Below are positions 4,999 to 59,447 of a stretch of DNA of 64,000 nt, in pieces. The number at the start of each line of letters is the position of its first letter. Position 1 is the stretch's first letter. Under the pieces are notes generated by a model. It ran no database searches and was not told the DNA's origin. It saw only the letters and a list, made by a program, of their open reading frames with translations. The DNA is from a virus (Duplodnaviria; Caudoviricetes). Both the position numbers and the translations under genes were made by a program. Where the stretch lies: positions 90,038-154,037 of the IMG/VR virus record IMGVR_UViG_3300020577_004280; one strand, given 5' to 3'.

Positions 4999-6060
4999 AT
5001 GAAAATCATTATCAGTAACGAAAATAAAAATGCCCACTATTATATCAGAATGGGTTTTGCAAAAGCTCTGTCTGCTTGTGGTCATGAAGTATTATTATGG
5101 GATTTAAACGAAAAAAGCGTGTTTGATGCGTTTGATGAACATCCTGATATGAATGTCTTGGTTACTCAAACTTATAATGTGAATAAAGCTATGTATAAAT
5201 GCCTTAAAGAAAGACCCTGGATAAAAGTAACAATGAAAGGGTCTGATTGGGGTATCGCTCAAGAAAACATGGATTTAAATAGATATCCCATTTTAGTTGC
5301 CAATCCAAGAGAAATAGAAACTATTCTAAAACTACATGACGAAACAGGTAAACCTGATTTTATCGATATACATTACCATCAATCATCTGTGGAACAAACC
5401 CACTCTAAATGGATTGAAAAAGGTATAAAATGTGTTGGATTAATGAGCGGCGCCGATATTTCAGATTACCACGGCGGAAAAATAAAAGAAGAGTTAAAAT
5501 GCGATATAGGATATATCGGAGGTTATTGGCCATATAAATCTCATACGTTAAACTCATATCTTATTCCTTTATGTCAACCACAATATAATTATAGAATTAA
5601 AATTTTTGGAAATCAAAGTTGGGGAGTACCACAATATTGCGGGATGCTACCAACTGAAGAAGCTAAGAATCTATTTGTTTCAGCAAGTATATGTCCAAAT
5701 ATTAGTGAACCACACTCTCAAGTATATGGACATGATATAGTAGAACGACCGTTTAAACTACTATCTGCTGGAGCTTTTATGATTACAGATTATGTCAAAA
5801 GCATGCAAGATAATGTTTTTGGTGATAATGTTGTTTATGCAAATTCTCCAGAAGATTTTAAAGAAAAAATTGATTTTTACTTGAAAAATCCAGAAAAACG
5901 ATTAGACTATATTAGCCGTGGATACAATCATGTGATGAATAATCATACATATTTTCATCGAGCTATACAATTTTTTAATGAATTAGGCTTATCGTATGAA
6001 GCTGAAAAAGTCAAACAAGTTTATACTAAAATACAACAGGATATTAAATGCAAATCATAA
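4999..6060 (+). CDS. CgeB/YkvP-like glycosyltransferase (Glyco_trans_1_2)
   Basis: DIGYIGG, ICPNISE, ERPFKLLSAGAFMITD, NHTYFHR. Confidence 0.85.
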   Translation: MKIIISNENKNAHYYIRMGFAKALSACGHEVLLWDLNEKSVFDAFDEHPDMNVLVTQTYNVNKAMYKCLKERPWIKVTMKGSDWGIAQENMDLNRYPILVANPREIETILKLHDETGKPDFIDIHYHQSSVEQTHSKWIEKGIKCVGLMSGADISDYHGGKIKEELKCDIGYIGGYWPYKSHTLNSYLIPLCQPQYNYRIKIFGNQSWGVPQYCGMLPTEEAKNLFVSASICPNISEPHSQVYGHDIVERPFKLLSAGAFMITDYVKSMQDNVFGDNVVYANSPEDFKEKIDFYLKNPEKRLDYISRGYNHVMNNHTYFHRAIQFFNELGLSYEAEKVKQVYTKIQQDIKCKS

Positions 6061-6950: not shown

Positions 6951-7614
6951 TATAATAGAAAATATCCCGGCTTTTTGTGTCCTTTTAGATAAAAGAATAG
7001 AATTTTGGCCAGAATTAGAATCACAATTCAAGAATGTTGGAATTAATCTTAAAGGATTACTAGTTGGAAAAGAAAAAATGAATTATGAATACTTCCATCA
7101 TGATGTTAATGAAAAGCCACCAATATACGATACCACTAATCAATATCCTTCTTGGGTAAATGGTACTAATGCATTTAACGCATGGATATCCCATAAAAAA
7201 ATATTACAATTTGCATATCACATAAATTGTGATAAAATAATGATAGTGGAAGACGATGTTAAAATAGAGTCAGATTTTCAAGATATTATGCAAGATGTCA
7301 ATCAATATTTTGAGCATCGCTCTTTTGATATGCTACAGTTTGGTGGATATCATCATAATAATACTATCAAAGTATCAGACCATGTAGTAAAAACTCAAGC
7401 AAGCGGTGGATGGCACGGTGTTATAATCTCAAAAAGTATAATTCCACTTCTACTAAGTTTTGAACCAATAGGACCGTTCGACTGGATATGCGAACAATTT
7501 ATCCAACCAAAGTATGACTGTTATTGTATTCATCCCGGTATCATTAATCAAAAAGATGGTTTTTCATTCGTAGAAAATTCAAATTTAACCAAACCAGATA
7601 GGTATACACTATGA
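6943..7614 (+). CDS. GT25-like glycosyltransferase
   Basis: LDKR..., SHKKIL, MIVEDDV, DMLQFGG, PFDW. Confidence 0.8.
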   Translation: MNNIIENIPAFCVLLDKRIEFWPELESQFKNVGINLKGLLVGKEKMNYEYFHHDVNEKPPIYDTTNQYPSWVNGTNAFNAWISHKKILQFAYHINCDKIMIVEDDVKIESDFQDIMQDVNQYFEHRSFDMLQFGGYHHNNTIKVSDHVVKTQASGGWHGVIISKSIIPLLLSFEPIGPFDWICEQFIQPKYDCYCIHPGIINQKDGFSFVENSNLTKPDRYTL

Positions 7615-53768: not shown

Positions 53769-56700
53769 TTAATATAAACCGTTCATTTTAGCAGTAAACC
53801 ACTGTGGGCCAACATATAACGGACCTTCTGATACTTTCTGATAAGAATTAGCAAAACCACCGCCATCCGTACATTCTAGAGGTACTATATCCTTATTTGA
53901 CCTAGCTAACATATTAGCCATAAGTAAAGCTGAGTAACGGTCTTTTCTAGCTCTACCTTTTTTACCACCAGACAACTTAACATCTGGTGTATCCCATCTT
54001 TGGCGACCTGTAGCGGTTTCAGTAACTACAATAGTAGCTAATTCATCCTTTAGTTCTTCTATATCTAGCACGCAATCTTCTAGTCCATCATATAATGTAG
54101 TATCTTGTCTTAAATCTTCCTCGGCTAAAGTAATACTATCAAAATAAGGAAATAACAGAACTCTATCCTCTAAGTCTTTACGTAGACCGTGGTTAGAGTC
54201 TCTTGTATAATCAGCGCCAGAAAAATTAACTAAGTCGATAATATGTAATCCAGCTTGAGCATCTGTATCTTTTGGTTTATTCGGGTCAATCATTGGTAGT
54301 AGTGGCTGGAATTTACCATCTTTTGTATTCTGTAAAGCTTCTAAAATAGCATAACCCCCACCTTGGGTATCTACAGCTATCTTAGTGGTCGGGAACCTTT
54401 TCATTAAATCTCTAATTTTACCAGCACAATATTGGTAGTAATCATTCTCCTGTACAACACCGGCTTTGACTCTTTCTTTAAAACCTTTACGATTAATCGT
54501 CCAGCAATGTACGATACGTCGATGTGTTTTATGAATCTCTAAGATGACTATAGCAAAATTATCTACTTCGGAAGCTGGGTCGATACCAAATACATATTGA
54601 CAATCTGGGTTACCTACTGTAACAGCAGCGAACATCTCCGCTCCTTGTGGTAGCATATTAAATTCTGTATTATGGTTTACACAACAAGCCTCAATTAATG
54701 TTCGTTTAAAGAACCCATTACTATCTTTAGAGAATATAGCTAAGTATTCCATCTCGAACGTACCAGCGTCGAATGTGGCTCTAGAACGGGCTACCTGTGC
54801 TGCATCCATGAAACCGGCTGGTATTAAATCATATGGTATTCTGATAACAGCAAAATCTTTATGAGATATACTTGGGTCATATTTATCTTCTCCACCGAAA
54901 GCAACAGCTATTTTACTACTATCACCTTTACTCTCAATAATCTTATGCCATATCTTCCAGTAATGCGCGAAGTGATTAAAAGAATAATAAGCTGTACCGG
55001 ACAATACTAATTGGTTGGGCATATTAGTGAATATAGCTTGCTTAGCATCATCTTTCCATACGCCGAGTTCTTTAGCTGCTGCTTCTGCCGCTACCTGCTT
55101 CATATTATCTATTGGAGATGAGCTAACAGCACCGAAACCAACGATAACTGTTTCAAATACTTCTCTACTAATTGAATTATGCTGTCTAAAACCCTCGGCA
55201 TAAAAACTATGCGTTGCTGGAAGATAATAATCATATAAATGTTCCTGTTTGTCTAATTTAGTTACAGAAACAACTTTACGATACTTTTGCCGATTCTTCC
55301 ATTCAATTACATGTAGTTCAGCGGCTTCTTTGGTTTGAAATCTTACTCGCTTATATTTGCCGCAAGTTAACAAAGTTGTAAACCAAATATTTTTTTCGAT
55401 GTCGTATGATACATAAGCGTGTTCAACTGGAATCAAACAGTTATCTATAGCGTTTTGAAACCTTGGTACCTTTAGCATTATAGCAGCGTCTCTAGCCGCC
55501 GCACTATTCCATCGTACAAACCATTGTAGATTTTCACTTATCTTTGATTCTCTATTCTGAATATAGCCATCAAAACCAAGTTTATTCATTAATACCTGTA
55601 CATCGCGGCATAATCTTTCAGATACGGAATAATAAGCTAGTCCAATTTTATTAGGTACGTTCCTTTGCTTGTCATTGAATAAAAAGCAAGACCCGTCTCC
55701 TTCAAATAATCCGGACAAGAAGGCTTCAATTATATTTTTAGTAGATTGTAAGATTGACCAAGGAATTTTCTTATCGTGGGCGGTGACGTAATCTAAACCA
55801 AGTTCGTAAAATTTCTTTCTTAAATCCGTGTCACATTTATAAAGAGAATAAGATTCTTTGCATATCCATCCACGTTTATCAATGTATTCTTTTCTAATAA
55901 ATAGCTTAAACCCATATTCATTGATAAGTTTATCTCGTGTTACAATGTCAGTTGTAGTTACGCCAATTGTATTTTTATTTTTAATAGACCCTTCACTGAC
56001 CAACATTCCCATTAGCCAAGCAGTTTTTTCATCAACAATTTCAGTTTTGCCAAACTCAAATCCGTTATCGTTTCTTGTTTCCTCAATCCAGTCTCCGGGT
56101 TGTAGGTCTTTAGCTAATTTCCAACCATTATTAGTCATAACTTGATGTATGTTAGAGCATCTGATTACGTAGCCATTTCTTAACTTTACTTCATATACGT
56201 CGGTTAACGGGGTTTTAATAAACTTAGTAGGAGATTCTATTGGCTTGATTGGATTGCCTGTTGGTAGTGTAGTACATCTGTCAAAATCTTGTATACGGAT
56301 AAAACCATTGGTGGTTTCTACCATGCTGTTGTATCCCAAACATGAAAACTCGTCACCCAGCACGTCATTAGCACGCAAACCTCTAATCTTATCACCACCG
56401 GGACCAATAGGAATGAATGATGCTACACTATCAAATATACGAAATCTCCACATATCAATATCTTTAGATGGTCCACCATGACTACCAACTAAATCTCTCA
56501 ATACCGGTGCGTTATTCCAGATTGTTTCCATGTACTCAAACACGAATTTAGACTGACGGAAAGCAGCACCAGCTACTACTATTTTTCTTTTAGGAAGTAA
56601 TAATAATCTGAGTAGGCAATATACTGCCAATAAGAACGTTTTTGAGAGTCCCCTGGAGCCGATTAACATTGGGAACTTCTTCTCCCACAAGGTTCTTAAA

Positions 56701-56936
56701 ATACAAAACTGCATTGGCGTTAATTCAATATTAAATATATACTTTGTCATTAAAGTAAAATATTCTGGATGACTCATTAACCAAATAATATACAGATGTA
56801 TTTCGTCGTCAATACCAGAAGGCATATTGGTTAGTGGATTAAATATTAAATCCGGGTCAAAACCTTTCGGTAAATTTAACCAAGCGTCTTCTTCTAGTCT
56901 CTTTTTTAGAATTACATCTGTTGTACTAATACCCAT
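53769..56936 (-). CDS. terL: terminase large subunit containing an intein (about 666 aa after splicing)
   Basis: Q motif LTPMQ, Walker A GSRGLSKT, KIRGLRA, Walker B VLGDEF, LSGT, nuclease GIDPASEVDNF and KDRYSA. Confidence 0.93.
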   Translation of the reverse strand: MGISTTDVILKKRLEEDAWLNLPKGFDPDLIFNPLTNMPSGIDDEIHLYIIWLMSHPEYFTLMTKYIFNIELTPMQFCILRTLWEKKFPMLIGSRGLSKTFLLAVYCLLRLLLLPKRKIVVAGAAFRQSKFVFEYMETIWNNAPVLRDLVGSHGGPSKDIDMWRFRIFDSVASFIPIGPGGDKIRGLRANDVLGDEFSCLGYNSMVETTNGFIRIQDFDRCTTLPTGNPIKPIESPTKFIKTPLTDVYEVKLRNGYVIRCSNIHQVMTNNGWKLAKDLQPGDWIEETRNDNGFEFGKTEIVDEKTAWLMGMLVSEGSIKNKNTIGVTTTDIVTRDKLINEYGFKLFIRKEYIDKRGWICKESYSLYKCDTDLRKKFYELGLDYVTAHDKKIPWSILQSTKNIIEAFLSGLFEGDGSCFLFNDKQRNVPNKIGLAYYSVSERLCRDVQVLMNKLGFDGYIQNRESKISENLQWFVRWNSAAARDAAIMLKVPRFQNAIDNCLIPVEHAYVSYDIEKNIWFTTLLTCGKYKRVRFQTKEAAELHVIEWKNRQKYRKVVSVTKLDKQEHLYDYYLPATHSFYAEGFRQHNSISREVFETVIVGFGAVSSSPIDNMKQVAAEAAAKELGVWKDDAKQAIFTNMPNQLVLSGTAYYSFNHFAHYWKIWHKIIESKGDSSKIAVAFGGEDKYDPSISHKDFAVIRIPYDLIPAGFMDAAQVARSRATFDAGTFEMEYLAIFSKDSNGFFKRTLIEACCVNHNTEFNMLPQGAEMFAAVTVGNPDCQYVFGIDPASEVDNFAIVILEIHKTHRRIVHCWTINRKGFKERVKAGVVQENDYYQYCAGKIRDLMKRFPTTKIAVDTQGGGYAILEALQNTKDGKFQPLLPMIDPNKPKDTDAQAGLHIIDLVNFSGADYTRDSNHGLRKDLEDRVLLFPYFDSITLAEEDLRQDTTLYDGLEDCVLDIEELKDELATIVVTETATGRQRWDTPDVKLSGGKKGRARKDRYSALLMANMLARSNKDIVPLECTDGGGFANSYQKVSEGPLYVGPQWFTAKMNGLY
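55176..56342 (-). mobile_element. intein with LAGLIDADG homing endonuclease (389 aa) in TerL
   Basis: Begins CLGYNS after DEFS, ends RQHN followed by Ser; block B CSNIHQV; LAGLIDADG motifs LMGMLVSEGS and FLSGLFEGDGS. Confidence 0.92.
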
Positions 56937-56938
56937 TA

Positions 56939-57412
56939 TTAAAAACCTACGTTATTACTTTCATATACCTGTGTGAATATTTTAATAATCTCTTCGGCGG
57001 CGTCGTGACGATTATCACAAAAGACAAATTTGATATCATACTTTTCTTCGATTTTTTTACATAGACCATACAGGGCTTTACCATTAAACCTAAGTTTAGA
57101 CCATTTATCTTTTGGTATACCTGAATTTTTAGGAAATTCTAATAAATCGTTTACTGAGAATTCACATATAATATATTTGAATTGTATATCCTTAGCTCGC
57201 TCAAGTTCACGATAGAATCTATCTTTGTCTACACCAAGATTAATAGATAGCTCACCACTATTACGTTTACGCTCAATAAATACCTTATCTTCGTAGCCAA
57301 CCATACTGTAGTCGCCTGTATCAACTTTGCGTTTTTCCACACCTTTACATTCTTCAAAGAAGGAAAAATCTAGTGGGATTTGCTCGCGGGTATCTTGGAT
57401 TATTGTAAACAT
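56939..57412 (-). CDS. ERCC4/XPF-type nuclease
   Basis: DTREQ, GDY, IERK (ERKxxxD-like), RFYRELER. Confidence 0.85.
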   Translation of the reverse strand: MFTIIQDTREQIPLDFSFFEECKGVEKRKVDTGDYSMVGYEDKVFIERKRNSGELSINLGVDKDRFYRELERAKDIQFKYIICEFSVNDLLEFPKNSGIPKDKWSKLRFNGKALYGLCKKIEEKYDIKFVFCDNRHDAAEEIIKIFTQVYESNNVGF

Positions 57413-57804
57413 GGGAATATGTTGTTGTTTCTTTTAATGATTGAAATATCAGAACCTAATTCCACAATCACATTATCTGCTATAACACCAAAACCAGCCA
57501 TAACTGTTTCAATTAAATCGTTTGAAATATCTTTTCTGCCAACAAAAATATATTCATCTAAACGTCTACTATAAGTATATTCTTGATTAGCTGGGAAAAA
57601 CATCAATTCAGAATCTCCTATTGTAATACGATAGAAATCTGCATATTTTAATACTTGATATTTGTCTGTAATTTCTTTAGTTATAGTAGCAATCTTATCA
57701 CAAAAGCGTATCGCTAATTCAAATCTAGGAAATATTAATCCAATTTTGGTCTTTTGCTCAAGAGCTTTCATAATTACATATAAAGGTAATGTTTCGTGAT
57801 TCAT
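57400..57804 (-). CDS. ATPase-dead paralog of the TerL ATPase domain (134 aa)
   Basis: Colinear similarity to spliced TerL (ISNDLIETVMAGFG vs ISREVFETVIVGFG); start ATG 57804 with GAGAGG RBS and ATGA overlap. Confidence 0.7.
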   Translation of the reverse strand: MNHETLPLYVIMKALEQKTKIGLIFPRFELAIRFCDKIATITKEITDKYQVLKYADFYRITIGDSELMFFPANQEYTYSRRLDEYIFVGRKDISNDLIETVMAGFGVIADNVIVELGSDISIIKRNNNIFPCLQ

Positions 57805-58073
57805 TTTTGTTTTCCTCTCACTATATCTCCAAATAACTGCATATAACAATGTTCCGCGCCACTAATTAACTGATGGTGGGTTTTACATAAAGTAATACCG
57901 TTGGTGACCTCAAACCTTAACATAGGTGCGTCAGCCCAACGGATAATATGATGTGCGTTTAATTTTGTCTTACAAGTACAGCCGGGAAACTGGCAACGAA
58001 AACCATCCCTTTTAAATATCTTCACTCTCCAAGCTTTATAGATTGGGTCATTGTAATCTCTACGAGAGGACAT
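57801..58073 (-). CDS. HNH endonuclease (packaging-associated, HK97 gp74-like position)
   Basis: WR..IFKRDGFRCQ..C..LNAHHI, NGITLCKTHH; likely start MSSRR at 58073. Confidence 0.88.
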   Translation of the reverse strand: MSSRRDYNDPIYKAWRVKIFKRDGFRCQFPGCTCKTKLNAHHIIRWADAPMLRFEVTNGITLCKTHHQLISGAEHCYMQLFGDIVRGKQK

Positions 58074-58875
58074 TATCTTCCTTTGCGGTTTCGGCTGTAA
58101 ATATTGGTTGGTCAACTACACCGTCATTATACTGATGGTAATCGGTTAATCTACGCATTTCAACTTCTGTAGCCACACGCATCTTCTCGATATATTCGCC
58201 CCATTCTTTTCTTATGTTTTTATTTTCGATTAACTCAGCTAACATACCAATAAAGTTAGCTTTAGAACTTTCCAGGTTCTTAACACGCTGTTGTCGTGTG
58301 GCTTTAAGTTCTTTTAAGATAGCTAGTTTTCGATTAGAAAGCTCTTGGAATTCTTTAGACCATGCTGTTTGGGCAGAACGAGCAAGAGCAACTTGTGTAC
58401 TTAGACTATTTACCTTCATTGGGTCTGGTACATTCTGTGCTTGTTCATCAACCAATAATTTCTCAAGTAAGGCAATATTTTGTTGGTTGGTATTTTGCTG
58501 TTTAAGACCTCTACTCATCAATAATTCTATTTTTACCATATCAACAATTTGTAGTTCTTCCGTTGGTAGTACGTCATCTTTAAACTGACTAATAGTTTTT
58601 TCCCAATAGTATACAAATAATGGAAGTTCATCTTCTGTAAATTGTGCTTCTATATCTTTCCAATATGGTCTGGTTTTTATGTCGTATTCCAGTCTAAGAT
58701 TTTGAGCTGCAATAGATTTGCCAGGATTAACTATATGTTCAGTTATATATCGTTTCACACTACTAGCCTTACGACTTAAGTGTTTAGCGATAAGTTTTAC
58801 TTCTATCTTTTTATAATTTTGTTCTATATACTCAATTTCATCAAGAGTAAATCTACCTTCTTTGTATTTTGCCAT
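58060..58875 (-). CDS. probable terminase small subunit
   Basis: N-terminal HTH (FTLDEIEYI..IAKHLSRK..SVKRYI) plus long coiled coil; upstream of TerL. Confidence 0.5.
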   Translation of the reverse strand: MAKYKEGRFTLDEIEYIEQNYKKIEVKLIAKHLSRKASSVKRYITEHIVNPGKSIAAQNLRLEYDIKTRPYWKDIEAQFTEDELPLFVYYWEKTISQFKDDVLPTEELQIVDMVKIELLMSRGLKQQNTNQQNIALLEKLLVDEQAQNVPDPMKVNSLSTQVALARSAQTAWSKEFQELSNRKLAILKELKATRQQRVKNLESSKANFIGMLAELIENKNIRKEWGEYIEKMRVATEVEMRRLTDYHQYNDGVVDQPIFTAETAKEDNVLS

Positions 58876-59447
58876 TATTCATCCATACAATCATTTTGAG
58901 TCAAGATATCTTTAATACGGTCTATAATTTCTGACCGGCGATTTTTATTAACATATACATCGGAGAGCATTTTCAAATAATCTGTTCTCATAGAAATAGG
59001 CAGATTCCGATTAATCAAAGCAAATATTTCCTTATTAGACATTACATCTATATTGTCTACTTCGTAGGTAACCTCACTTTGTACTTCATCAATATTCAGA
59101 GGGTGGTCTATATTTTTCTTTGTATTGAATAAGACTCTTTGTCTTAAACAGTTATCACAATTATCAGAGTCTTCATTATTGCATATATCACATTGATATT
59201 TATAGTATTTTGAATTATCTCTTCTGAAATTATAGAGTCTGTTCCTAACCGACACATTTAAGAAATTCTCTAATGGTCGTTGACCGTCATACTTTTCAAT
59301 TACTTCTGCACAAATAATATAAGCTTCCTGATAGATATCTTCTGGTTCAAAATGGTCAAACGCAAAATTTCTGCTTACGGATTGACATACTTTATGAATA
59401 GTATTATTAGCTTCTTCGGCAGAAATGTTATTCGGTAATCTTATCAT
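58875..59447 (-). CDS. phage sigma70-family factor (region 2) with Zn-finger insertion
   Basis: EDIYQEAYI..IEKYDG.RPLENFL..VRNRL.NF.RD; CDIC..CDNC. Confidence 0.8.
   Translation of the reverse strand: MIRLPNNISAEEANNTIHKVCQSVSRNFAFDHFEPEDIYQEAYIICAEVIEKYDGQRPLENFLNVSVRNRLYNFRRDNSKYYKYQCDICNNEDSDNCDNCLRQRVLFNTKKNIDHPLNIDEVQSEVTYEVDNIDVMSNKEIFALINRNLPISMRTDYLKMLSDVYVNKNRRSEIIDRIKDILTQNDCMDE

What the first reader, a model, noticed from the sequence alone, without database searches (positions are those of the whole stretch)
57400..57804. Catalytically dead mini-copy of the terminase ATPase domain encoded two genes upstream of TerL (candidate decoy or motor regulator)
Seen: the 134-aa ORF aligns colinearly with the TerL ATPase domain. 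LPLYVIMKALEQKTKIGLIFPRF..TI matches LAVYCLLRLLLLPKRKIVVAGAAF..TI; KYADFYRITIGDSELMFFP matches KDIDMWRFRIFDSVASFIP; RRLDEYIFVGRKDISNDLIETVMAGFG matches LRANDVLGDEFS|SISREVFETVIVGFG. The last match runs without a gap across the intein insertion site, so it matches the spliced protein. The ORF begins just after Walker A, has Walker B DE replaced by VG and lacks the nuclease domain, yet keeps an RBS, ATGA coupling and an intact frame despite strong divergence, which suggests it is maintained by selection. Established: Avs/STAND anti-phage receptors recognise the terminase fold including ATPase active-site features. Inference: it may be a pseudo-ATPase that titrates such sensors, or a regulatory or spacer subunit of the packaging motor. 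I do not know of a described equivalent.
Basis: partly seen in the sequence, partly recalled or inferred. Interest (0 to 1): 0.88.

Follow-up and report, generated by a model that had tools for sequence, protein, structure and literature searches.

The report
Dead mini-copy of terminase ATPase core
This uncultured ~154-kb phage keeps, inside its DNA-packaging operon, a small intact gene that is a stripped-down, catalytically dead copy of the ATPase core of its own packaging motor; similar "truncated terminases" have been noted in other phages, and their job is still unknown.

Summary

- **Dead as an ATPase:** it starts just after Walker A. Walker B Asp-Glu is replaced by Val-Gly, and it has no nuclease domain.
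- **Conserved:** four distant same-length homologues (28-33% identity) lie in the same packaging operon of related phages. The carriers with a full TerL on record form one TerL clade. About 80 wider-clade relatives lack the gene.
- **Selection:** purifying (dN/dS about 0.25), yet it is by far the fastest-evolving gene of its operon (34% identity where every other gene in that operon is 65-91%).
- **Retained motif:** it keeps the TerL loop RGxR-[A/L]-N-[D/E], at the position of the P74-26 trans-arginine finger.

Function is not shown. My best guess is a one-sided TerL mimic that docks on TerL. An immune decoy is possible but less likely.

It is not without precedent. "Truncated large terminases" next to terL were reported in Rak2-like phages (PMC5259590), and this scan has met that kind before on other DNA. 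This one is an independent and much smaller version.

The parts
57400..57804 (-). 134-aa gene for the dead TerL-ATPase-core paralogue (P0001)
   Evidence: ORF and translation. Homologues P0003, P0004, P0005 and P0007. hhalign to TerL. AlphaFold model with pLDDT 80.6, whose top fold matches are TerLs.
57814..57819 (-). Ribosome-binding site GAGAGG, 9 nt before the ATG. The ATG (57802-57804) overlaps the HNH stop codon (57801-57803) as ATGA.
   Evidence: Read from the sequence.
57559..57570 (-). Codons for Y78-S-R-R81-L82, the window's version of the family motif RGxRL. This matches the TerL-invariant RGxRA just before Walker B. R81 and L82 are invariant in the family.
   Evidence: Alignments A1/A2, hhalign, TerL invariant columns, coordinates.
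57538..57543 (-). Codons V88-G89, aligned to the TerL Walker B D196-E197. The position is Val in four members and Ile in P0007, so the catalytic pair is lost.
   Evidence: hhalign, family alignments.
56939..57412 (-). ERCC4/XPF-type nuclease gene (157 aa). Its start overlaps the ORF's end by 13 nt.
   Evidence: Pfam ERCC4 E 3.9e-7 and phrog_3490 E 4.8e-24.
57801..58115 (-). HNH endonuclease gene (104 aa), directly upstream and translationally coupled to the ORF.
   Evidence: Pfam HNH_2 and PHROG HNH families. Orthologues are found across the clade.
58060..58875 (-). 271-aa conserved protein, possibly a helix-turn-helix at the N-terminus. It is a small-terminase or regulator candidate and the first gene after the sigma-like gene.
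   Evidence: Weak HTH_38 and phrog_323 hits. Conserved position in 50+ loci. The TerS role is inference only.
53769..56936 (-). TerL with a LAGLIDADG intein (aa 199-587, nt 55176-56342) inserted right after Walker B. The segments homologous to the ORF are aa 103-198 (56343-56630) and aa 588-611 (55104-55175).
   Evidence: Pfam Intein_splicing and LAGLIDADG_3, PHROG TerL families. Splice junction DEFS|C...HN|SIS. Motif positions.

Best explanation
What it is (about 0.9 confidence): a real, selected gene for a stand-alone, non-catalytic paralogue of the TerL ATPase core. It most likely arose by partial duplication of this clade's own terL in the ancestor of a small subclade, and then diverged fast.

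It spans the TerL segment from the helix after the P-loop to the strand after Walker B. It therefore has no Walker A, no Walker B acid pair, no lid and no nuclease. It cannot bind or hydrolyse ATP the way TerL does.

How it most likely works (inference, about 0.35): it acts by binding as a one-sided mimic of a TerL subunit. It keeps the TerL-invariant loop RGxR-[A/L]-N-[D/E], which sits where the P74-26 trans-arginine finger sits (between helix alpha2 and the Walker B strand). It lacks the nucleotide-site face that would accept the next subunit.

It is made from the same coupled operon as HNH, ERCC4 and TerL. It could dock on a TerL monomer's ATP-site face. There it would either supply an arginine finger, stimulating TerL off the portal, or cap TerL self-assembly. 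Either way it would tune terminase activity during initiation and cutting.
For: Shown:
- Colinear similarity to spliced TerL: shuffle test 0/2000, BLASTP E 1e-4.
- Profile-profile hhalign 92.5% and 89.7% over 106-110 columns.
- The family HMM, searched against all six-frame ORFs of 85 loci, hits only TerLs, at about 1e-5.
- Five intact members of 132-135 aa in conserved synteny, sigma-like / X / ORF / HNH / ERCC4 / TerL.
- dN/dS about 0.25 for L085 vs L086.
- The three carriers with a full TerL on record are monophyletic on the TerL tree.
- Translational coupling on both sides of the ORF.

Motif retention: RGxRL in 4 of 5 members, with R81 and L82 invariant, against the TerL-invariant R171 G172 R174 A175 N176 D177.

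Placement of the P74-26 finger R139 between alpha2 and beta3 comes from PMC5727402.

The independent truncated paralogue CBB_274 also keeps an RG before its degenerate Walker B.
Against: - No binding to TerL is shown.
- The gene evolves far faster than TerL. It is 34% identical between L083 and L085, where TerL is 79% and every other gene of that operon is 65-91%. That is unexpected for a stoichiometric partner of a conserved motor.
- About 80 wider-clade relatives have the same HNH / ERCC4 / TerL set without it. The motor therefore does not need it.
- The window's own copy has lost the first Arg and the Gly of RGxR (it reads YSRRL).
- It sits in different slots in different genomes: HNH-ORF in the window, ORF-HNH in the others. 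That behaviour resembles accessory cargo.
- The equivalence of the motif to a trans-arginine finger is by position only.
Confidence: 0.4

Rival explanations
1. A TerL mimic aimed at factors other than the phage's own motor. Candidates are a decoy or shield against host sensors that recognise TerL (Avs1-3-type STAND proteins), or against satellites that hijack TerL. It would be made at the same time as TerL.
For: - It is the fastest-evolving gene of a conserved late operon (34% against 65-91%; 57% against 84-92%).
- It is restricted to one lineage and dispensable for the clade. That pattern is typical of host-interaction genes.
- It has a TerL fold and keeps a surface loop that TerL itself cannot change.
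- It is co-expressed with TerL.
- Avs sensors bind TerL monomers directly (PMC13581612).
Against: - It lacks the P-loop, the Walker B acids, the first ~100 residues, the lid and the nuclease domain. It is therefore a poor copy of the shape that Avs sensors envelop (PMC13581612).
- Recognition of ATPase active-site features by Avs3 is from my own recollection of Gao et al. 2022, not checked here.
- The only described small phage protein with a TerL-ATPase-like fold, Ksap2, binds and activates KpAvs2 (PMC11564622). Such a protein may be a liability rather than a decoy.
- The two anti-Avs proteins discussed in detail in the EVADES preprint (a DNA ligase and a DprA/Smf-like protein) are not TerL mimics (10.1101/2025.06.06.658234).
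- The host and its defence systems are unknown.
Confidence: 0.2
2. An accessory of the two packaging nucleases rather than of TerL. It would be a dead RecA-like module that partners the ERCC4 or HNH nuclease, or binds DNA ends. The inactive helicase-like domain attached to the ERCC4 nuclease in eukaryotic XPF would be the analogy.
For: - It is always flanked by, and translationally coupled to, HNH and ERCC4.
Against: - HNH and ERCC4 occur across the whole clade without it.
- The XPF match is no better than the generic RecA-fold matches and lies below the terminase matches.
- Sequence homology is to TerL specifically.
Confidence: 0.12
3. A slowly decaying leftover of a partial terL duplication or recombination event, with no function of its own. 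The packaging module is a hot spot for homing endonucleases and an intein, which could have produced such an event.
For: - It diverges very fast.
- The module carries an intein. A relative carries homing-endonuclease-like genes in the same slots.
- The gene is absent from most of the clade.
Against: - Five lineages keep an open frame of nearly the same length (132-135 aa) although synonymous sites are saturated (dS 1.0-2.4).
- dN/dS is about 0.25 in the closest pair.
- Core and motif residues are conserved.
- The fold is predicted with confidence.
- Translational coupling is preserved.
Confidence: 0.08

Closest known systems
'Truncated large terminase' next to terL in Rak2-like jumbo phages (CBB_274 of Pectobacterium phage vB_PcaM_CBB; also reported for phiM12 and phiN3). 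Buttimer et al. 2017, PMC5259590.
   Same: - A stand-alone ORF derived from the TerL ATPase domain, lacking the nuclease domain.
- Encoded in the same operon, close upstream of the real terL.
- Catalytic motifs degenerate. In CBB_274 the Walker A Lys is Leu and the Walker B Glu is Ser.
- An RG is kept just before Walker B.
- Function unknown.
   Different: - CBB_274 is 235 aa and covers the whole ATPase domain, including a degenerate P-loop (it aligns to TerL 38-288). The protein here is 134 aa and begins after the P-loop.
- There is no detectable sequence relation between the two (hhalign probability 0.7%). Each resembles its own phage's TerL, so the origins are independent.
- The phage clade is different (about 154-kb uncultured phages, TerL not of the T4 type).
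- Here the gene is separated from terL by a nuclease gene.
The TerL ATPase domain itself (this phage's TerL; solved examples D6E 5OE8, P74-26 4ZNI, T4 gp17 2O0H, Sf6 4IDH, PhiV-1 8DGC)
   Same: - Same fold and element order, from the helix after the P-loop through the Walker B strand and the following helix and strand.
- Clade-specific motifs are shared: LxLY, RGxR, ETVxxGF.
   Different: No strand-1/P-loop, no Walker B Asp-Glu, no FRQSK motif, no lid subdomain and no nuclease domain. The extra C-terminal strand (residues 120-124) falls outside most structural alignments.
Ksap2 (Bas60_220), a small phage protein that activates KpAvs2. Bechon et al. 2024, PMC11564622.
   Different: - No sequence relation to this family (hhalign probability 1.7%).
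- It is encoded between the nrdA and nrdB genes, not in the packaging module.
- Its TerL likeness is weak and was not confirmed against other TerLs. Here the homology to TerL is supported by sequence profiles as well as by fold.
- Its known property is triggering a defence system, not blocking one.

Membership tests
Large terminase ATPase domain (ASCE/RecA-like; Pfam Terminase_6N / TerL_ATPase) | TerL-type ASCE fold | tested here: met
Large terminase ATPase domain (ASCE/RecA-like; Pfam Terminase_6N / TerL_ATPase) | Detectable sequence homology to TerL | tested here: met
   hhalign 92.5% / E 4.9e-7 and 89.7% / E 1.9e-6. The family HMM hits only TerLs among the six-frame ORFs of 85 loci. Shuffle test 0/2000. 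No Pfam or PHROG terminase model is matched directly.
Large terminase ATPase domain (ASCE/RecA-like; Pfam Terminase_6N / TerL_ATPase) | Walker A P-loop (G/A-x4-GK-T/S) | tested here: not met
   The protein starts at the position of TerL residue ~98-103, after GSRGLSKT (93-100). No P-loop motif is present in any of the 5 members.
Large terminase ATPase domain (ASCE/RecA-like; Pfam Terminase_6N / TerL_ATPase) | Walker B hhhhDE with the catalytic Glu | tested here: not met
   TerL D196-E197 aligns to V88-G89. The first position is Val in four members and Ile in P0007. The second is G, E, N, R or R.
Large terminase ATPase domain (ASCE/RecA-like; Pfam Terminase_6N / TerL_ATPase) | C-terminal RNase-H-like nuclease domain | tested here: not met
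   The protein ends at residue 134. No longer or fused forms were found (exhaustive search; 'longer' search).
'Truncated large terminase' paralogues next to terL (CBB_274 type, PMC5259590) | Stand-alone TerL-ATPase-derived ORF without a nuclease domain, encoded close upstream of terL | tested here: met
   It is the second gene upstream of terL in the window (ERCC4 between them), with HNH and ERCC4 between them in the relatives.
'Truncated large terminase' paralogues next to terL (CBB_274 type, PMC5259590) | Sequence relationship to CBB_274 and its homologues (common descent) | tested here: not met
   hhalign of CBB_274 against family alignment A2 gives probability 0.7%. CBB_274 is instead related to its own TerL, CBB_275 (E 6e-9).
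'Truncated large terminase' paralogues next to terL (CBB_274 type, PMC5259590) | Covers the whole ATPase domain with a degenerate Walker A | tested here: not met
   CBB_274 aligns to TerL 38-288 and keeps a degenerate P-loop. The protein here begins after the P-loop.
Ksap2-type Avs2 activators (PMC11564622) | Sequence relationship to Bas60_220 | tested here: not met
   hhalign probability 1.7%.
Ksap2-type Avs2 activators (PMC11564622) | Binds and activates an Avs2 sensor | not testable with these tools
   This needs co-expression and pull-down assays. The host and its defence systems are unknown.

The most novel reading that the evidence does not exclude
Phages of unrelated lineages have repeatedly made dead copies of their own TerL ATPase core. 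This 134-aa version is the minimal form. It would act as a molecular mimic that protects the real TerL from host immune sensors or from satellites that capture TerL, for instance by occupying or shielding the surface around the invariant RGxR loop. Its very fast evolution would then reflect an arms race.
Probability: 0.15. Interest if true: 0.85.

Novelty: new variant of a known kind. Interest (0 to 1): 0.55.

Why it matters
Dead copies of the packaging ATPase next to terL have now been seen in several unrelated phage groups: Rak2-like jumbo phages, phiM12/phiN3, and this clade. Earlier notes of this scan add P1-like phage-plasmids. No function is known for any of them.

This case shows that such a copy can arise independently. 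It can also be pared down to about 130 residues that keep one TerL-invariant loop while losing every ATP-binding element. That narrows what the shared function can be: binding, probably through the arginine-finger loop. It also gives a small, tractable protein for testing whether these paralogues regulate the terminase or face the host's terminase-sensing immunity.

Tried and rejected
- **Direct family searches found nothing.** Searched: Pfam, PHROGs, NCBIfam and PADLOC, PDB sequences with the family profile, cultured phage genomes by tblastn and blastn, IMG/VR pattern scans, and the word-indexed protein search with the single sequence.
- **Single-sequence AlphaFold model was unusable.** It had pLDDT 71 and its five models disagreed. 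It gave no meaningful fold match. I replaced it with the model built from the 5-sequence alignment.
- **Complex prediction gave no answer.** Complex prediction of P0004 with the ATPase domain (1-345) of its own TerL from L083 scored 0.00. This is neither support for nor evidence against binding.
- **P0006 is a chance hit.** It is an 1885-aa protein, E 1.7e-4. It is a Bacteroidota-type HYR/Ig repeat surface protein with a type IX secretion signal, and the hit builds up by summing weak repeat matches.
- **No fused or longer forms.** None were found (weak evidence).
- **No orthologue in the wider clade.** The corresponding slots there hold an epimerase plus an 82-aa ORF, a ClpP-like gene, or HNH-type homing-endonuclease-like genes.
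- **Ksap2 and CBB_274 are not relatives of this family**.
- **TerS identity rejected.** The fold is RecA-like alpha/beta, and the upstream 271-aa protein (conserved position, possible N-terminal helix-turn-helix) is the better TerS candidate.
- The metagenome-contig scan with the alignment failed because no stretch was conserved enough.
- **Promoter and terminator scan was uninformative.** It found no minus-strand terminator inside the operon.

Full report
**The gene.** On the minus strand, 57400-57804 encodes a 134-aa protein, P0001. A GAGAGG ribosome-binding site lies 9 nt before the ATG. The ATG overlaps the stop codon of the upstream HNH gene (ATGA). The ORF's last 13 nt overlap the start of the downstream ERCC4 nuclease gene.

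The leftward operon reads as follows:

| Gene | Coordinates |
|---|---|
| sigma-like protein | 58875-59447 |
| 271-aa protein, possibly helix-turn-helix at the N-terminus | 58060-58875 |
| HNH endonuclease | 57801-58115 |
| the ORF | 57400-57804 |
| ERCC4 nuclease | 56939-57412 |
| TerL | 53769-56936 |

TerL carries a LAGLIDADG intein (aa 199-587), inserted right after Walker B at ...GDEFS|C...HN|SIS....

**Is the TerL likeness real?**
- BLASTP against the unspliced TerL gives only a 27-aa match (E 0.003).
- Against the spliced TerL the match grows to 60 aa at 32% identity (E 1e-4).
- Smith-Waterman gives a single colinear alignment of ORF 5-113 with TerL 102-220. The score is 65, against 32.4 +/- 4.6 for 2000 shuffles, none of which reaches it.
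- In the whole 64-kb window the ORF is the only non-self six-frame hit of TerL.

An exhaustive HMMER search of 1.84 billion representatives found three same-length homologues at 28-33% identity. A profile search added a fifth member.

A profile of these five, compared with profiles of 36-57 TerLs of the clade, gives hhalign probabilities of 92.5% and 89.7% (E 4.9e-7 and 1.9e-6) over 106-110 columns. The family HMM, searched against every six-frame ORF of 85 loci, hits the family and then only TerLs, at about 1e-5.

There is also support from predicted structure. An AlphaFold model built from the 5-sequence alignment has pLDDT 80.6 and pTM 0.78. Its best matches are large terminases in three searches:
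- Foldseek against PDB: ranks 1-10 shown are D6E TerL chains, with 12 matches at E <= 0.001 and a best E of 8e-5.
- ESM Atlas: nine of the ten nearest clusters carry terminase Pfam families.

**What is kept and what is lost.**
- TerL Walker A (GSRGLSKT) is residues 93-100, and the ORF aligns from TerL 103. The P-loop and everything before it are absent.
- Walker B D196-E197 aligns to V88-G89. The first position is Val in four members and Ile in P0007. The second varies.
- The TerL-invariant FRQSK motif, the lid and the nuclease domain are absent.
- Kept are the core strands, the LxLY helix, the ETVxxGF helix and the loop just before Walker B. That loop is RGxRAND in TerL, invariant in 36 TerLs. 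It is RGxRLN[E/D] in 4 of 5 family members, with the second Arg and the Leu invariant. The window's copy reads YSRRL.

This loop lies between helix alpha2 and strand beta3. The trans-acting arginine finger R139 of P74-26 TerL has been placed there (PMC5727402). The equivalence is by position only.

**Distribution and evolution.** All four homologues lie in the same module: sigma-like / 215-aa protein / ORF / HNH / ERCC4 / TerL / portal. In the window the order of HNH and the ORF is swapped.

On a TerL tree the window groups with L083 and L085, with L002 as sister. The carriers with a full TerL on record therefore form one clade. Eighty wider-clade loci (TerL 48-58% identical) have the same sigma / X / HNH / ERCC4 / TerL backbone but no copy of the ORF. 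Their slots hold an epimerase, an 82-aa ORF, a ClpP-like gene or HNH-type homing-endonuclease-like genes.

No Pfam, PHROG or PDB terminase is matched by sequence. The shared motifs, such as ETVxxGF, are those of this clade's TerL. The PhiV-1 TerL, for example, reads differently there. This points to a partial duplication of the clade's own terL.

The frame is intact in all five lineages although synonymous sites are saturated. dN/dS is about 0.25 for the closest pair, L085/L086, so the gene is under purifying selection.

It is nevertheless the fastest-evolving gene of its operon:

| Pair | ORF identity | Other genes |
|---|---|---|
| L083 vs L085 | 34% | every other gene from the sigma-like gene to the capsid genes is 65-91% |
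| L085 vs L086 | 57% | HNH 84%, ERCC4 92% |

**Mechanism.** The protein cannot be an ATPase, so it must act by binding. Three readings remain.

1. *One-sided TerL subunit (about 0.35).* It keeps the "donor" loop (RGxR) but lacks the "acceptor" nucleotide site. It could dock on a TerL ATP-site face and either supply an arginine or cap self-assembly. Evidence for: origin, operon coupling and motif retention, which the independent paralogue CBB_274 also shows. Evidence against: fast evolution, dispensability in most of the clade, and the degenerate motif in the window's own copy.

2. *A mimic aimed at host sensors or satellites (about 0.2).* The evolutionary rate and patchy distribution fit. However, the protein lacks the active site and half the domain, whereas Avs sensors envelop the target core and bind monomers (PMC13581612). 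The one described small TerL-like protein, Ksap2, activates Avs2 rather than blocking it (PMC11564622). The two anti-Avs proteins discussed in detail in the EVADES preprint are not TerL mimics.

3. *A partner of the HNH or ERCC4 nucleases (about 0.12), or a decaying leftover (about 0.08).*

A complex prediction with TerL gave no answer and counts neither way.

**Comparison with what is known.** Buttimer et al. [quoted passage not shown]

I checked this. CBB_274 (235 aa) aligns to its TerL, CBB_275, over residues 38-288 at 21% identity (E 6e-9). Its Walker A Lys is Leu, its Walker B Glu is Ser, and it retains an RG. It has no sequence relation to the family here. The two are therefore independent inventions of the same kind.

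Ksap2 of phage Bas60 is unrelated and lies between the nrdA and nrdB genes.

Earlier notes of this scan describe the same kind in jumbo phages and P1-like elements. Those notes led me to the Buttimer paper. Beyond that paper and the CBB comparison, I did not test their claims.

**Verdict.** A well-supported, independently evolved, minimal variant of a known but unexplained kind. It is a new family with five members, all from uncultured phages. Its function is open.

Noticed in passing
window 55176-56342 (minus strand), inside TerL: A LAGLIDADG intein of 389 aa is inserted directly after the TerL Walker B motif (DEFS|C...HN|SIS). Of the 81 TerL-bearing relative loci examined, only L009 and L059 have TerL frames long enough (about 1060 aa) to hold a similar insertion.
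   Followed up: partly
window 57400-58115 compared with L083:10001-10730, L085:7123-7840, L086:161-884: The order of the HNH gene and the small ORF is swapped. It is HNH then ORF in the window, and ORF then HNH in the four relatives. The genes are otherwise orthologous (HNH 43-44% identical). The ORF therefore occupies different intergenic slots in the two branches.
   Followed up: partly
L014:3027-4351 and 5107-5718; L002:5943-6497 and 6957-7583: The junctions of the packaging module are variable cargo slots in relatives. They hold a GDP-mannose-dehydratase-like epimerase plus an 82-aa ORF, a ClpP-like protein between ERCC4 and TerL, and, in L002, two paralogous HNH-type homing-endonuclease-like genes flanking ERCC4.
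   Followed up: partly
window 57486-57515 compared with TerL 55130-55159: A 30-nt stretch of the ORF (codons for IETVMAGFG) is 87% identical in DNA to the start of the TerL C-extein (blastn E 7e-6), although the rest shows no DNA similarity. This may reflect shared codon bias on identical residues, or a small gene-conversion tract.
   Followed up: no
BFVD matches of model m5716aec4632b: Several uncharacterised 105-155-aa proteins of actinobacteriophages have a very similar small alpha/beta fold (TM 0.6-0.79, rmsd about 2.1-2.7). Examples are Gordonia phages Hedwig and NancyRae, and Arthrobacter phages MargaretKali, Yavru and Kuleana. Whether they are also cut-down ATPase cores is not known.
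   Followed up: no
window 56939-57412 and 57801-58115; 50+ related loci: An HNH endonuclease and an ERCC4/XPF-type nuclease are conserved side by side upstream of TerL across the whole clade. That is an unusual two-nuclease packaging cassette.
   Followed up: partly
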